Below, piece by piece: positions 18,222-22,712 of a stretch of 64,000 nt of DNA. The notes under the pieces are model-generated. The model was given only the letters and a program-made list of their open reading frames with translations. It was not told where the DNA came from and made no database searches. Each line of letters starts with the position of its first letter. Within the stretch, counting starts at the first letter, position 1. A program made the position numbers and the translations under genes. The stretch lies in assembly GCF_009914755.1 (NCBI RefSeq), contig NC_060942.1. One strand, 5' to 3'. Origin of the DNA: the human T2T-CHM13v2.0 reference genome, Homo sapiens.

Positions 18222-18323
18222 CTAAAGCTCCTCCAGCAGAGCCCGGTATTCTTCCTCGCTGAGGGGTGCTTCCAGCGAGGCGGCCTCTTCCGAGGCCTCC
18301 AGCTCCCCCGGGGCCTCCGTTTC
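18222..18323 (-). pseudogene. DUX4: DUX4-like fragment: C-terminal 33 codons plus stop, homeodomains absent
   Basis: translates [33 protein letters not shown], the DUX4 C-terminus. Confidence 0.95.
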
Positions 18324-18611
18324 TGGGAAAGGGTTAGACACAGAGTAAGTTGCCTTTGATTGAATTTTAAAGGGGTTGAGAGCTAACTTTTGATAATTAT
18401 TTTTAGACTTAAAATTTATTTTATATTTTGTGTTACTTCAGCACTGTTACCTACTTTTCTGTTTTTCTTAAGCATAAATGTTGACATTATATTAAATCTT
18501 CAGCAAAATGTGAGAAGGAAAAATGTATATACTTATTTCATGTATTTGGAAGACAACTTTTTTAGTTCAAGTGTTTAGTAGTTTGAGTTCAGAGAGCATT
18601 TCAAAAAGTAT

Positions 18612-19246
18612 AGTCAGCTGTGTATCAGTGGGTTCCATATCCACAACTGTGGATAGAAAATATTTGAAAGAGGGCCGGGTGCGGTGACTCACACCTGTAA
18701 CCCCAGCACTTTGGGAGGTCGAAGCAGGTGGATCACCTGAGGTCAGGAATTCAAGACCAGCCTGGCCAACATGGTGAAACCCCGTCTCTACTAAAAATCC
18801 AAAAATTAGCTGGGCGTGGTGGCAGGCGCCTGTAGTCCCAGCTACTCAGAAGGCTGAGGCAGGAGAATCACTTGAACCTGGGAGGCAGAGGTTGCAGTGA
18901 GCCGAGATTGCGCCACTGCACTCCGGCCTGGGCCACAAGAGCGAAACTCTGTCTCAAAAAAAAAAAAAATATATATATATATATATATAAAATATTATAT
19001 ATATATATTTTATAACTATTAATAGAAATTTCTTTAAAAAATACAGTATAACAACTGTTTACATCGCATTTATACTGTATTATGTCTTATGAGTAATACA
19101 GACATGATTTTAAAGCATACAGGAGGATGTGCCTAGGTTATATGCAAATACCACACCATTTTATATAAGAGCCTTGAGCATACTTGGACTTTGATATTTT
19201 TGGAGTTCCTGGAATCAATTCCCTGTGGATATAAAAGAACAACTGT
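18612..19246. mobile_element. MER2/Tigger-family DNA transposon interrupted by an AluS (18673-18970) and (TA)n
   Basis: aatacagtataacaac...gcatttat...caggaggatgtgc.taggttatatgcaaata motifs. Confidence 0.75.
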
Positions 19247-19779
19247 GTAGGATTCTTTGGTCATTATTAAGGGGAAATATAAATATATCTGTTCTTTTGT
19301 AATGATAGGTCAAAGAGGCCTATAATATGGTATTTTTTCTTATATTCATTCTAAAATCTTTTCTTAAGTATTGCTGCTTATATTATCATAGATTATGTAG
19401 TATGTATAAAGATGAGTAAATTCCATCATTAAGGACCTTACCGACTAGTAGGAGAAAAGGCAGAACATATTCAACAAAATATATATTCAAAGTCAAGTCT
19501 GGTAACTGCTTTTTAAAAGAAATATATATATAAAATAAAGTATTATCATCCCTTTGAAATTAAGTATTTGTGGAGCTGGTTATAGTTAGAATGTAAAAAG
19601 AATTAAGCAAGTTCTAGAGAATACTCTTACTTTATTTTCTATTTTTTTAATAAACAGCTTTAGTTGTCAAAATTTAAATTATCAGCTTAAGTGAAATAAT
19701 ACATAAACACTAGTATGAAAGATACTATCTTTCAACTAAGTTAAATACTTTTTAGATTGATGAGAGATTTCTTTCCTCT

Positions 19780-22600
19780 CTTTATTAAGGTATAATTTCC
19801 CACAATAAAGTTCATAGATCTTAAGTGTTCTCTTCAGTAACTTTTTACAGTTGTAAACACTCATATAATCACTCAAGACAAGATTTTAAAAAATCGTATT
19901 TCTTTAGAAAACTCACTTGTGGCTGGGCACAGTGGTTATGCCTCTAATCCCAGCACTTTGGGAGACCAAGGTGGGCGGTTGGCCTGAGTTCAATTTGAGA
20001 CCAGCCTGGGCAACATAGCGAGACCCTGTCTCTGAAAAAAGAATTTTTTTTTTTTTTAAATTTATGAAGAGAGCTCACTTGGGCCAGTTGTGGTGGCTCA
20101 CACCTGTAATCCCAGCACTTTGGAAGGCTGAGGTGGGAGGATCACGAGGTCAGGAGTTCATTCGAGACCAGTCTGGCCAACATGGTGAAACCCTGTCTCT
20201 ACTAAAAATACAAAAAATTAGCTGGGCGTGGTGGCAGGTGCCTGTAATCCCAGCTACTCGGGAGGCTGAGGCAGGAGAATCGCTTGAACCCAGGAGGCTG
20301 AGGTTGCGGTGAGCCAAGATTGCACCACTGCACTGCAGCCCGGGTGACAGAGCGAGACTCCATCTCAAAAAAAAAAAAAAAAAGAAAAAGGAAAGCTCAC
20401 TTGTACCTCTTCCCATGATCTGATTTCTATTGCCAAGATTAGTTTTGCCTGTTCTAGAACTTTATATAAATGGAATTAAACAGTAATGTACACTTTTGTG
20501 CCTAGCATCTTTCACTCAGCCTGCACCTGTGGTGGTGTATGTATTGATTGTTCTTTGTATTGCTGAATAGTATAACATTGCATGAATTTGTTTATCCATT
20601 TTTGTGTTGATTGACATTTGGGTTGCTTCCAATTTGGGGCTATCGTAAATAAGGCTTATGAGCATTCCTTTTTTTAACTTATGTTTTCATTTCTCATGGG
20701 TAAATACCCAGGATTGGAATCCTGGGTTATAAAGTAGATCTGTGTTTAACTTTTTAAAAATCTACCAAACAATTCTCAAAAATTATTATGTCACACTATT
20801 TTATATTCACCAACAGTATGAGTTTCAGTTGCTCCACATCCTCACCAACATTTGGTGATATCAACCTTTGATTTTAGCTTTTCTAGTGGATGTTAAATGC
20901 TATTTCATTGTTATTTTAATTTGCATTCTCCTCATAACTAATAATACCAAGAATCTTTCATGTCGTTATTAGCCATTGTATATCTTTTCTTTTTTCAAGT
21001 CTTTTGCCCATTTTTAAATTGGGTTGCTTATGTTTTTAAGATTGGTTTTTAAGAGTTCTAGATATATTCTGAATAAGAATCCTATGTTAGAAATATGTAA
21101 TGCAAATATTTCCCAATCTGTTGCTTACCTGTTGATTTTGTTAATGGTGTCTTTTAATGAGGATCAGTGTACCAATTTTTAAAATGTTTTCTGCCTTTTG
21201 TGGTCTGTGTTTGGTAAGAGGTAGTTGTTTAGGTCAGGTTGGCTTTTTTCCCCCCACATAGGTATCTGGTTGTTCCAACAGTATTTGTTTTTATATGTTG
21301 ACCTTGAATCATTTAATCTTGCTTTGCACTTAACAGTTTTATAGGGTTGTGGGGTTTTGGGATCAGTTCCACAGAGCTTTTCTACACACAGTCAGCCCTC
21401 TGTATCCATGGGTTCTGCATCTGTATATTCATCCAACCATGGATTGAAAATGTAGTTAGGCCTATTGTGGTTGTGTCTGTACTTAATATGTACAGATTTG
21501 TTTTCTTGTCATTATTCTCTAAACAATATAATATAATAACAATTTCCATAGCATTTACATTGTATTAGATATTATCTAGAGACAATTTTAAATATACAGG
21601 AAGGTGTACTTAGGTTATATACAAATACTACACCATTTCTTATCTTTTCTTTTTTTCCTGTCTCTTCCCTCCTTCCCTCTCATTCTCTCTCTTTCTCTTT
21701 CACTCTCTCTCTTCAAAATCCTCCGGGGTCCTGGGACCAATCTGCCACAGATACCACGAGACAACTGCATACAATCATGTCATCGCCAAATAAAGAGTTT
21801 TACTCCTTTCTTTCCGATCTGTATGCCTTTCTCACGTGTATAGATTTGTATGCCCACCACCACACTCAAAATACAGAACAATTCCATCACAAGCATCCCT
21901 GTGCTACTCCTTTTGTAGTCAAAAGGCAGCTTCCTTCCTCCACCTCTCCCTAATCCATAGCAACATTAATCTGTTCTCCATCTCCATAATTTTGTCTCTT
22001 CAAGAGTGTTATATGAATGGAATCAAATAATGTGTAATCTTTTCTGATCAGCTTTTTTTCCCATTCAGTATAATTCCCTTAAGATCAATCCAAGTAAAAT
22101 TTGTTTTTTTCTTGTTGAGTAGTATTCCATAGTATAGATGTATCACAGTTTGCTTACCCATTTATTTGGGTTGTTTCTAGGTTTTGGTTATTATGAATAA
22201 AGCTCCTATGAACATCTATGTGCAGGTTTTTTTAAATAGATATAAAATGTTATATGAATTTTTGTTTCTTGAAATTAAAGGCCCAACAGTGCAATTTGCT
22301 GGGTTATATGGTAAGCATATGTTTAGTTTTCTAAGAAATTGCCATATTCTTTTTCCAGAGTGGCTCTGTAATTTTATGTTTCCATCAGCAGTATATGAGT
22401 GATTTACTTTCTCTGCATTCTCACAAGCATTTGATGTTACTACTGTTTTTATTTTTTTAACTCTGATAGATGTGTAGTGACACTCATTGTGGTTTTAATT
22501 TGCATTTCTCTAATGACTGATGATGTTGAATATCTTTTTGTGTGCTTATTTATCACCCATATGTCCTCTTTAGTGAAATGTCTTTTACAATAAATGAGTT
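19780..22600 (-). mobile_element. Old L1M fragments with inserted Alus (19921-20040, 20082-20395) and a Tigger3-like element (about 21389-21766)
   Basis: T-rich L1 antisense motifs (cattgtggttttaatttgcatttctctaatgact); Alu arms. Confidence 0.75.
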
Positions 22601-22633
22601 TTTGTAAATGGCCTATATTTATTTTCATTTTAG

Positions 22634-22712
22634 TAAACTGTTTCACGTTAGACCTGTAACCCAAGGAGATGTGTATAGAGCTGAAACTGAAGAAATTCCT
22701 AAAATATTCCAG
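22634..22712 (+). pseudogene. ROCK1P1: ROCK1-derived exon (PH domain part)
   Basis: ttttag|TAAACTG...TTCCAG|gtaaaa; [26 protein letters not shown]. Confidence 0.95.

What the first reader, a model, noticed from the sequence alone, without database searches (positions are those of the whole stretch)
18226..22712. D4Z4-ROCK1 junction keeps a phase-matched splice donor: antisense DUX4 as the ROCK1P1 first exon
Seen: DUX4 identity stops at about 18324. Twenty nt later the + strand reads TTA GAC ACA GA|GTAAGT, a consensus donor at 18345. The next ROCK1 exon starts T AAA CTG, so splicing rebuilds GA|T and gives L-D-T-D-KLFHVRP. Known: ROCK1 reads ...VLDIDKLFHVRP, and ROCK1P1 ('Little ROCK') is described as the ROCK1 terminal exons plus a unique first exon. 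Inference: the duplication broke inside a ROCK1 exon, kept its tail and donor, and captured the D4Z4 CpG island as promoter and first exon. The transcript would be antisense to the DUX4 3' end. The fused frame is open from 18226 but has no ATG before 22877.
Basis: partly seen in the sequence, partly recalled or inferred. Interest (0 to 1): 0.8.

Follow-up and report, generated by a model that had tools for sequence, protein, structure and literature searches.

The report
ROCK1P1 first exon from D4Z4 remnant
The human pseudogene ROCK1P1 has an alternative first exon made of a leftover piece of the D4Z4/DUX4 repeat read backwards, which ends in the last few bases and splice site of a broken ROCK1 exon; the sequence shows this clearly, but the exon and its origin are already annotated and published.

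Summary
The window's 18334-37485 is a 19.15-kb inverted duplicate of the ROCK1 3' end (0.99% substitutions). It starts 11 nt before the end of an 89-nt ROCK1 exon and keeps that exon's own GTAAGT donor at 18345. Directly upstream, 15026-18332 is collinear with the distal end of the 4q35 array. On the minus strand it holds the last 36 DUX4 codons, a pLAM-like stretch without the poly(A) signal, then 6 kb of 68-bp beta-satellite.

The exon 17888-18344 is real, is antisense to the DUX4 3' end and lies in a CpG island. It is one of three alternative first exons. The "unique first exon" of Little ROCK is 14855-15243, in beta-satellite. The phase match follows automatically from keeping the native donor and has no coding effect here: TAA at 18223, no in-frame ATG before 22877.

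Nearly all of this is in print or annotated:
- RefSeq lists the exon.
- Dougherty 2018 gives the PacBio isoform ROCK1P1_2 with this junction and describes promoter exaptation from beta/LSAU satellite.
- Giussani 2012 and a 2026 T2T survey list the 18p11 D4Z4/pLAM block.
- Block 2012 showed antisense promoter activity in the distal D4Z4 unit.

The small additions here are a mutation cluster at the junction and 98% antisense identity to the 4q/10q DUX4 3' ends. Interest is low.

The parts
10983..11460 (.). (ACCCTA)n telomere-like repeat distal to the beta-satellite
   Evidence: TRF, period 6, 78.8 copies
11492..17460 (.). 68-bp beta-satellite array (about 6 kb), as distal to pLAM on 4qA
   Evidence: TRF period 68, 87.5 copies; aligns to the beta-satellite distal of the 4q array
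14855..15243 (+). First exon of NR_033770.1 (the 'Little ROCK' exon 1), inside beta-satellite; donor GTAATG
   Evidence: Hub RefSeq table; CpG o/e 0.14
17403..17606 (+). Alternative first exon (Dougherty isoform ROCK1P1_1) in the pLAM-like stretch, antisense to the DUX4 exon-3 homologue. ATG at 17434 opens the 216-aa ORF (58 new + 158 ROCK1-derived residues); donor GTGTGC
   Evidence: 190/203 identical to 4q; not preceded by AG
17777..17874 (.). 50-bp GC-box-rich tandem duplication, single-copy in the distal 4q and 10q units, 14 nt upstream of the 17888 start
   Evidence: TRF; 50-nt gap in both 4q and 10q rows
17888..18344 (+). Alternative first exon (RefSeq; PacBio ROCK1P1_2). 17888-18332 is antisense D4Z4, 18334-18344 is the ROCK1 exon tail
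   Evidence: Hub table; (457-nt exon in hg38); 436/445 identical to the 4q and 10q distal units; preceded by GC, not AG
17461..18333 (.). CpG island formed by the D4Z4/pLAM remnant
   Evidence: 873 nt, G+C 72.4%, 83 CpG, o/e 0.74
18046..18129 (-). MIR8078 hairpin, in DUX4-sense orientation inside the exon
   Evidence: Hub table; 83/84 identical in all 39 non-self scored 4q/10q hits
18222..18332 (-). Last 36 codons and TAG stop of the DUX4 ORF homologue
   Evidence: 34/36 residues identical to the 4q unit ORF, which carries two homeodomains
18325..18341 (.). Junction zone: four transitions against the parental sequences (18325, 18329, 18336, 18341) and one unassigned base (18333)
   Evidence: no further substitution until 18180/18156 on the D4Z4 side and 18723 on the ROCK1 side
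18334..18344 (+). Tail (11 of 89 nt) of the fifth-from-last ROCK1 exon
18345..18350 (+). Native ROCK1 splice donor GTAAGT
   Evidence: Identical in the ROCK1 locus; used in ROCK1P1_2
18334..37485 (+). 19,152-nt inverted duplicate of the ROCK1 3' end and downstream DNA
   Evidence: BLAST 96.0-98.6%; 189 substitutions in 19,113 aligned columns
22634..22712 (+). Second exon (= ROCK1 fourth-from-last exon), acceptor for all three first exons
   Evidence: no substitution against ROCK1
22877..24225 (+). 118-aa ORF: first in-frame ATG 22877; stop TGA 24223-24225, where ROCK1 has C at 24223
   Evidence: exon 22835-23095 matches the ROCK2 C1 domain 2row_A, E 5e-36

Best explanation
A 19.15-kb copy of the ROCK1 3' end, starting 8-11 nt before the end of its fifth-from-last exon, was joined in inverted orientation to a 4qA-type subtelomeric block at 18p. 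That block consists of a truncated last D4Z4 unit, pLAM and beta-satellite. The join kept the ROCK1 exon's own strong donor (GTAAGT), which now faces the back of the D4Z4 remnant.

D4Z4 and its distal partial unit have intrinsic antisense promoter activity. Transcripts that start at 17888 (and at 17403 in pLAM) run antisense through the DUX4 3' end. They meet the inherited donor, or at 17606 a fortuitous one, and splice to the four intact ROCK1 terminal exons.

The result is a spliced, polyadenylated, largely non-coding ROCK1P1 RNA. This is promoter exaptation rescuing a 5'-truncated duplicate.

Shown here or in print: the two homologies, the breakpoint, the donor's origin, use of the exon and junction in cDNA, and the absence of a usable ORF extension.

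Inferred: that the D4Z4 antisense promoter described on 4q is what drives the 18p start sites.
For: ROCK1 homology runs 18334-37485 with 0.99% substitutions. The exon tail and donor are native to ROCK1. 15026-18332 aligns in one HSP with the distal 4q end. The D4Z4/pLAM part is 95.6% (939/982) identical to 4q and 95.8% (941/982) to 10q in aligned bases. The pLAM-like stretch matches best to the single distal sites of 10q (94%) and 4q (93%), with 40 of 638 candidates scored. The DUX4 C-terminus lies on the minus strand. A CpG island covers 17461-18333. Neither 17888 nor 17403 is preceded by AG, so both are starts, not acceptors.

Published support: PacBio isoforms ROCK1P1_1 and ROCK1P1_2 with exactly these exons, and the text on promoter exaptation from beta/LSAU satellite (Dougherty 2018, PMC6169893; passages and supplements). 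Reporter assays show an antisense promoter in D4Z4 and antisense-only activity of the last partial unit plus pLAM (Block 2012, PMC3334996; passages and section 11). The 18p11.32 D4Z4/beta-satellite block is described (Giussani 2012, PMC3488192; PMC12963445 Table 1 row 'Chr18 p11').
Against: No cap-based (CAGE) evidence was available here, so 17888 could be a 5'-truncated end of a longer RNA. Block's antisense start cluster was mapped on a 4q reporter, and I could not place it on window coordinates. The 18p copy carries a 50-bp duplication just upstream of 17888 that 4q/10q lack, so its promoter need not behave like the 4q one. Relative use of the three first exons is known only for captured brain cDNA. 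The exon tail differs from ROCK1 at 2 of 11 positions, unusual for a 99% duplicate (0.86% of 11-nt windows have 2 or more), and the exact breakpoint is ambiguous by about 4 nt.
Confidence: 0.85

Rival explanations
1. The 17888-18344 'first exon' is not an independent start. It is the 5'-incomplete end of transcripts that initiate upstream (in pLAM at 17403 or in beta-satellite) and read through, so the D4Z4 CpG island is transcribed but is not a promoter.
For: Dougherty's reads are 'putative full-length' PacBio reads, not cap-selected. Two other first exons lie upstream on the same strand (hub table). RefSeq marks 17561-17810 as a silencer (hub table).
Against: RefSeq and the PacBio GTF agree on the same 457-nt exon. 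A 72% G+C island with duplicated GC boxes lies directly upstream. The homologous 4q fragment drives antisense reporters.
Confidence: 0.12
2. The similarity of 18334-18341 to the ROCK1 exon is coincidental or filler DNA. The real ROCK1 breakpoint is at or within 3 nt of the exon-intron boundary, so only the intron side of the donor is inherited.
For: There are two mismatches in 11 nt, followed by 381 nt without any. There is an unassigned G at 18333 and two mismatches on the D4Z4 side, so the whole of 18325-18341 looks disturbed.
Against: Six of 8 matches to ROCK1 at 18334-18341 and 6 of 8 to D4Z4 at 18325-18332 would each arise by chance about 0.4% of the time (my calculation). D4Z4 read on past the break matches only 3 of 11. 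All four differences are transitions, which fits mutated parental sequence.
Confidence: 0.05
3. The kept reading phase matters: the antisense-DUX4 exon adds an N-terminal extension to a translated ROCK1P1 protein.
For: The frame is open for 39 codons before the junction and continues into the ROCK1 frame.
Against: TAA lies at 18223-18225 and there is no in-frame ATG in the exon. Out-of-frame ATGs at 18021 and 18035 open 41- and 75-aa upstream ORFs. No CDS is given for ROCK1P1_2. Little ROCK-GFP fusions were unstable (abstract). The only ORF with a new N-terminus, 216 aa, comes from the other exon, 17403-17606.
Confidence: 0.02

Closest known systems
ROCK1P1 isoform ROCK1P1_2 / 'TSS 2' (Dougherty et al. 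2018, Genome Res, PMC6169893) and the RefSeq alternative exon 17888-18344
   Same: The same exon, the same junction to the next exon, the same statement that part of the fifth-from-last ROCK1 exon was duplicated and that the start was acquired from adjacent beta/LSAU satellite. MIR8078 lies inside the exon.
   Different: In the passages and supplements I could search, the paper names the source only as satellite and never uses the words D4Z4 or DUX4. Supplementary file 1 and Fig. S3 were not readable. Its text assigns the 216-aa ORF to 'TSS 2', whereas its own GTF and my splice model put that CDS on the 17403-17606 exon.
Distal end of the 4qA/10qA D4Z4 array (last partial unit, pLAM, beta-satellite)
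   Same: The order and orientation of parts match. Aligned bases are about 96% identical across D4Z4/pLAM. The KpnI unit boundary (17996), DUX4 stop and exon 2/3 homologues are present (PMC12963445 Table 1; Giussani 2012).
   Different: Only 36 DUX4 codons remain. The poly(A) signal position reads GTCACA instead of ATTAAA (4q) or ATCAAA (10q). There is an extra 50-bp duplication. Proximally it abuts ROCK1 sequence instead of further D4Z4 units.
D4Z4 antisense promoter (Block et al. 2012, PLoS One, PMC3334996)
   Same: [quoted passage not shown] The last partial unit plus pLAM drives transcription in the antisense direction only. ROCK1P1's two proximal starts lie in the homologous DNA on the antisense strand.
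   Different: This was shown on 4q/10q fragments in reporters, not on the 18p copy. On 18p the antisense RNA meets a splice donor and downstream exons and a poly(A) site, so it becomes a stable spliced RNA.
HYDIN2 and other 5'-truncated human-specific duplicates rescued by promoter exaptation
   Same: Loss of the parental promoter, with acquisition of a start and first exon from the DNA at the insertion site.
   Different: Here the acquired DNA is a macrosatellite remnant, and the first donor used is inherited from the parent gene's broken exon.

Membership tests
ROCK1 segmental duplicate (ROCK1P1) | High-identity collinear copy of the ROCK1 3' exons and introns | tested here: met
   18334-37485 against C18:21125449-21144924, 189 substitutions in 19,113 columns. 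One exon matches the ROCK2 C1 domain 2row_A. The upstream ROCK1 exon matches the ROCK2 PH domain 2rov_A.
ROCK1 segmental duplicate (ROCK1P1) | Breakpoint inside the fifth-from-last exon with the native donor retained | tested here: met
   11 of 89 nt of the exon (9/11 identical) plus an identical GTAAGT... intron start.
4qA-type distal D4Z4 block | D4Z4 3' end with the DUX4 C-terminus, then pLAM, then 68-bp beta-satellite, in that order | tested here: met
   Single 3.3-kb HSP to distal 4q; alignment; TRF; translation.
4qA-type distal D4Z4 block | Permissive ATTAAA poly(A) signal in pLAM | tested here: not met
   18p reads GTCACA where 4q has ATTAAA. PMC12963445 Table 1 lists PolyA 0/1 for Chr18 p11.
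4qA-type distal D4Z4 block | Intact DUX4 ORF with homeoboxes | tested here: not met
   Only the last 36 codons are present.
Alternative first exon of an expressed gene | No upstream acceptor, a used donor, and cDNA support | tested here: met
   GC precedes 17888; donor GTAAGT; PacBio GTF and FASTA; RefSeq (hub table).
Alternative first exon of an expressed gene | Capped 5' end at the annotated start | not testable with these tools
   No CAGE or cap-trapped data were available.
CpG-island promoter | More than 200 bp, G+C above 50%, CpG o/e above 0.6 around the start | tested here: met
   17461-18333: 873 nt, 72.4% G+C, o/e 0.74. The criteria are recalled from Gardiner-Garden and Frommer.
CpG-island promoter | Promoter activity of the fragment, and its methylation dependence | not testable with these tools
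   Only the 4q/10q homologue was assayed. No paper holds both ROCK1P1 and SMCHD1.

The most novel reading that the evidence does not exclude
ROCK1P1 RNAs that start at 17888 (and 17403) are stable, spliced, human-specific RNAs. They carry 445 nt (98% identical) and about 200 nt (94%) of perfect-orientation antisense to the 3' end of the 4q/10q DUX4 mRNA: the last 36 codons, the 3' UTR and the exon-3 homologue. Where both are expressed (ROCK1P1 is highest in testis according to Dougherty 2018), they could pair in trans with DUX4 or D4Z4 sense RNA and feed dsRNA/small-RNA silencing of D4Z4 or destabilise DUX4 mRNA. At the least, they contaminate assays of 'D4Z4 antisense transcripts' and of MIR8078.
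Probability: 0.05. Interest if true: 0.6.

Novelty: already known. Interest (0 to 1): 0.15.

Why it matters
As a structural finding it adds little, because the exon, the junction, the partial exon and the satellite-derived promoter are annotated and published.

Its practical value is as a caution. A piece of 18p is 98% identical to the DUX4 3' end and is transcribed on the opposite strand from a different gene. Short-read RNA-seq, strand-specific RT-PCR for D4Z4 antisense RNA, small-RNA counts for MIR8078 and ChIP or CUT&RUN peaks can therefore be misassigned between ROCK1P1 and DUX4. The two genes do turn up together at the top of unrelated screens (BRD9 CUT&RUN; HBV integration targets; DNA in protein aggregates). 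That shared repeats cause this is my inference.

It is also a clean textbook example of a broken exon's donor being reused by a captured promoter.

Tried and rejected
1. A reciprocal D4Z4 piece at the other inversion or duplication boundary was not found. BLAST of C18:21115001-21126500 against two 10-kb 4q/10q D4Z4 loci gave no hit. The ROCK1-locus end of the duplicate abuts 171-bp alpha satellite. A single break in D4Z4 with staggered ROCK1 breaks is therefore not supported. A two-step history (duplicative transposition, then recombination between the inverted copies) fits, but this is inference. I did not see the primary inversion papers (refs 20 and 21 of Montefusco 2010); a search for them found nothing relevant.
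2. A protein-coding role for the phase match was rejected.
3. The BLAST figure of '90% identity to D4Z4' was misleading. It is mostly one 50-bp indel, and substitution identity is 96.8% (661/683) for 17600-18332.
4. Literature linking ROCK1P1 with D4Z4/DUX4. The search D4Z4+18p+ROCK1 found 0 papers. ROCK1P1+DUX4 found 9 papers, 7 listed, and I read passages of 5 of them. None makes the link. ROCK1P1+SMCHD1 found 0.
6. Pfam on the C1-domain exon reached only 18.7 bits, below the 26.5 cut-off. The PDB match to ROCK2 was used instead.
7. No ape genome was available, so the four junction changes could not be polarised, except that Ile at the changed codon is shared by ROCK1 and ROCK2.
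Full report
WHAT IS THERE

The + strand around the finding reads ...CCGTTTCTGGGAAAGGG TTAGACACAGA|GTAAGTTGCC... The exon ends at 18344 and the GT is at 18345. The next annotated exon begins TAAACTG at 22634 behind a ttttag acceptor.

A search of the window's own assembly with 18300-19000 returned, apart from Alu copies, a single paralogous place. This was G000:C18:21144261-21144924 on the opposite strand, matching from window 18334 onward. 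Read on that strand, the locus shows an 89-nt exon ending ...ATGGTATTGGACATAGA, followed by the same gtaagttgcctttg... intron. The exon translates to ...SNPSMVLDI and matches the split PH domain of ROCK2 (2rov_A, E 3e-11). A downstream window exon matches the ROCK2 C1 domain (2row_A, E 5e-36).

BLAST and a global alignment show that window 18334-37485 (19,152 nt) is collinear with C18:21144924-21125449. There are 189 substitutions in 19,113 aligned columns (0.99%) and 402 indel columns. The duplication therefore starts 11 nt before the end of the fifth-from-last ROCK1 exon and carries that exon's own donor.

THE OTHER SIDE OF THE JUNCTION

Window 17600-18332 matches every scored 3.3-kb unit of the 4q35 and 10q26 arrays; 39 non-self hits were scored out of 1,942 candidates. 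Window 15026-18332 forms one 3.3-kb HSP with the distal end of the 4q array.

The BLAST value of 90% is mostly one 50-bp indel. In a three-way alignment with the distal units of 4q and 10q, aligned bases are 95.6% (939/982) and 95.8% (941/982) identical over 17300-18332. Over 17888-18332 they are 98.0% (436/445) identical.

The 4q unit's long ORF has two homeodomains. Its last 36 codons and stop are present on the window's minus strand at 18222-18332, with 34 of 36 residues the same.

Distal to the KpnI unit boundary (17996) comes a pLAM-like stretch. Its best matches in the genome are the single distal sites of 10q (94%) and 4q (93%), followed by acrocentric and 1q copies at 86-88%; 40 of 638 candidates were scored. 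At the position of the 4qA poly(A) signal, 4q reads ATTAAA, 10q ATCAAA and 18p GTCACA.

Then follow 6 kb of 68-bp beta-satellite (11492-17460) and an (ACCCTA)n tract. This is the 4qA distal architecture turned round, with the telomere to the left.

THE JUNCTION ITSELF

Base 18333 (G) fits neither parent. ROCK1 identity starts at 18334 with mismatches at 18336 (G>A, synonymous) and 18341 (T>C, Ile>Thr). ROCK1 and ROCK2 share Ile at that codon, so the change is on the pseudogene side.

Beyond this 17-nt zone there is no difference for 144 nt on the D4Z4 side (next at 18180 against 4q) and 381 nt on the ROCK1 side (next at 18723). Only 164 of 19,141 11-nt windows of the duplicate (0.86%) hold two or more substitutions.

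Both parents read TTG at the join, so the breakpoint is ambiguous by about 4 nt. I read this as junction-associated mutation of parental sequence, not filler, but I could not polarise the changes without ape sequence.

THE TRANSCRIPTS

Neither 17888 nor 17403 is preceded by AG, so both annotated exons are first exons. With 14855-15243 that makes three alternative first exons, with donors GTAATG, GTGTGC and GTAAGT.
- **14855-15243.** This is the exon of NR_033770.1 and of the Little ROCK paper. It lies in CpG-poor beta-satellite (o/e 0.14). This agrees with that paper's remark that its first exon has no CpG island (Montefusco 2010, PMC2867973; abstract, Background, Results part 1 and passages read). 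The paper does not contain the words D4Z4, DUX4 or satellite.
- **17888-18344.** This exon lies in an 873-nt CpG island (72% G+C, o/e 0.74).

Spliced in silico, 17888-18344 joined to 22634 gives ...GKGLDTDKLFHVRP... The frame is open only from 18226 (TAA at 18223-18225), and the first in-frame ATG is at 22877. This yields the known 118-aa ORF, which ends at a TGA (24223-24225) where ROCK1 has C at 24223.

The phase match is what any use of the native donor must give. It has no coding effect in this isoform.

WHAT IS ALREADY KNOWN

Dougherty et al. 2018 (PMC6169893; passages and supplements read) state the following:
- It lies next to a satellite block of beta and LSAU repeats from which the start sites were acquired.
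- One alternative first exon contains MIR8078.
- This is promoter exaptation.

Their GTF lists ROCK1P1_2 with a 457-nt first exon (hg38 chr18:112098-112554) joined to 116842-116920. That is exactly window 17888-18344 joined to 22634-22712, and the printed part of its FASTA record starts with the sequence that follows window 17888. I could not read their Fig. S3 or supplementary file 1.

Giussani et al. 2012 (PMC3488192, passages) reported a D4Z4 fragment with about 6 kb of beta-satellite at 18p11.32. It was more than 97% identical to a chimpanzee 4q BAC fragment. They proposed that a block of one D4Z4 unit, pLAM, beta-satellite and subtelomere moved from a 4qA-like allele to 18pter.

A 2026 T2T survey (PMC12963445, passages including Table 1) lists 'Chr18 p11: 1 partial unit, flank Intron-subtel, exon 1 absent, exon 2 and exon 3 present, PolyA 0/1'. 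This agrees with my alignment.

Hoyt et al. 2021 (preprint, one passage) note that the LSAU-BETA composite overlaps the DUX4 genes and MIR8078.

Block et al. [quoted passage not shown] They also showed antisense-only reporter activity of the last partial unit plus pLAM.

MECHANISM

Shown:
- the two source sequences;
- the breakpoint to within about 4 nt;
- the ROCK1 origin of the donor;
- use of the exon and junction in cDNA;
- the lack of an ORF extension.

Inferred: the intrinsic antisense promoter of the distal D4Z4/pLAM fragment is what fires at 17888 and 17403 on 18p. The inherited strong donor then turns what would be unstable antisense D4Z4 RNA into a spliced, polyadenylated ROCK1P1 RNA.

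I found no paper that states this link. The searches were D4Z4+18p+ROCK1 (0 papers), ROCK1P1+DUX4 (9 papers, passages of 5 read, none links them) and ROCK1P1+SMCHD1 (0 papers). The link is a join between published facts rather than a new object.

HISTORY OF THE REARRANGEMENT

The other end of the duplicate is at window 37485. At the ROCK1 locus it abuts 171-bp alpha satellite. No D4Z4 sequence lies within 10 kb there. This fits a copy first inserted between D4Z4 and alphoid DNA, then recombination between the inverted copies. That is the kind of history cited by Montefusco's Background. It remains inference, because I did not see the primary inversion papers.

VERDICT

It is wrong in equating this exon with the Little ROCK 'unique first exon' and in giving weight to the phase match. 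The finding is already annotated and published.

- the mutation cluster at the junction;
- 98% antisense identity of the exon to the 4q/10q DUX4 3' ends;
- the 18p-only 50-bp duplication upstream of the start;
- the origin of the 216-aa ORF.

Interest 0.15.

Noticed in passing
window 17403-17606 (ATG 17434): The 216-aa ORF reported by Dougherty 2018 (58 new + 158 ROCK1-derived residues) arises from this pLAM-antisense exon, not from the MIR8078 exon. Their GTF puts the CDS on ROCK1P1_1, while their text says 'TSS 2'. In the distal 4q and 10q units the same ATG is followed at once by TAA (T instead of C at 17437), so the open frame is specific to 18p.
   Followed up: partly
window 17777-17874: A 50-bp GC-box-rich tandem duplication ends 14 nt upstream of the 17888 start. 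It is single-copy in the distal 4q and 10q units and accounts for most of the apparent 10% divergence in BLAST.
   Followed up: partly
window 18046-18129 (-): The MIR8078 hairpin is a D4Z4 sequence. It is 83/84 identical in all 39 non-self hits scored, all of them in the 4q/10q arrays (478 candidates). The one difference from the distal 4q unit (18050) lies outside the annotated mature stretch 18056-18078, so small-RNA reads cannot be assigned to chr18 alone.
   Followed up: partly
window 18325-18341: Four transitions and one extra base are packed into 17 nt at the D4Z4/ROCK1 join. They are flanked by 144 nt and 381 nt without any difference from the parental sequences, which suggests error-prone repair at the junction.
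   Followed up: partly
window 37485 and L023/L024 (G000:C18:21115001-21125448): The far end of the ROCK1 duplicate at the ROCK1 locus abuts 171-bp alpha satellite, with no D4Z4 within 10 kb. In the window the sequence runs on towards USP14.
   Followed up: partly
window 14855-15243: The 'unique' first exon of Little ROCK/NR_033770.1 is made of 68-bp beta-satellite monomers. It is therefore not unique in sequence class.
   Followed up: partly
window 304-481, 2514-3339, 4534-4583: There are further degenerate telomere-like (CCCTAA)n tracts and a 61-bp tandem repeat (13.6 copies, 95% matches) in the subtelomeric part of the window.
   Followed up: no
literature, ROCK1P1 with DUX4: ROCK1P1 and DUX4 or DUX4L genes appear side by side at the top of unrelated genome-wide lists: BRD9 CUT&RUN top two genes, recurrent HBV integration targets, and DNA peaks in protein aggregates. 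Shared D4Z4/beta-satellite sequence is a likely cause, but this is my inference.
   Followed up: no
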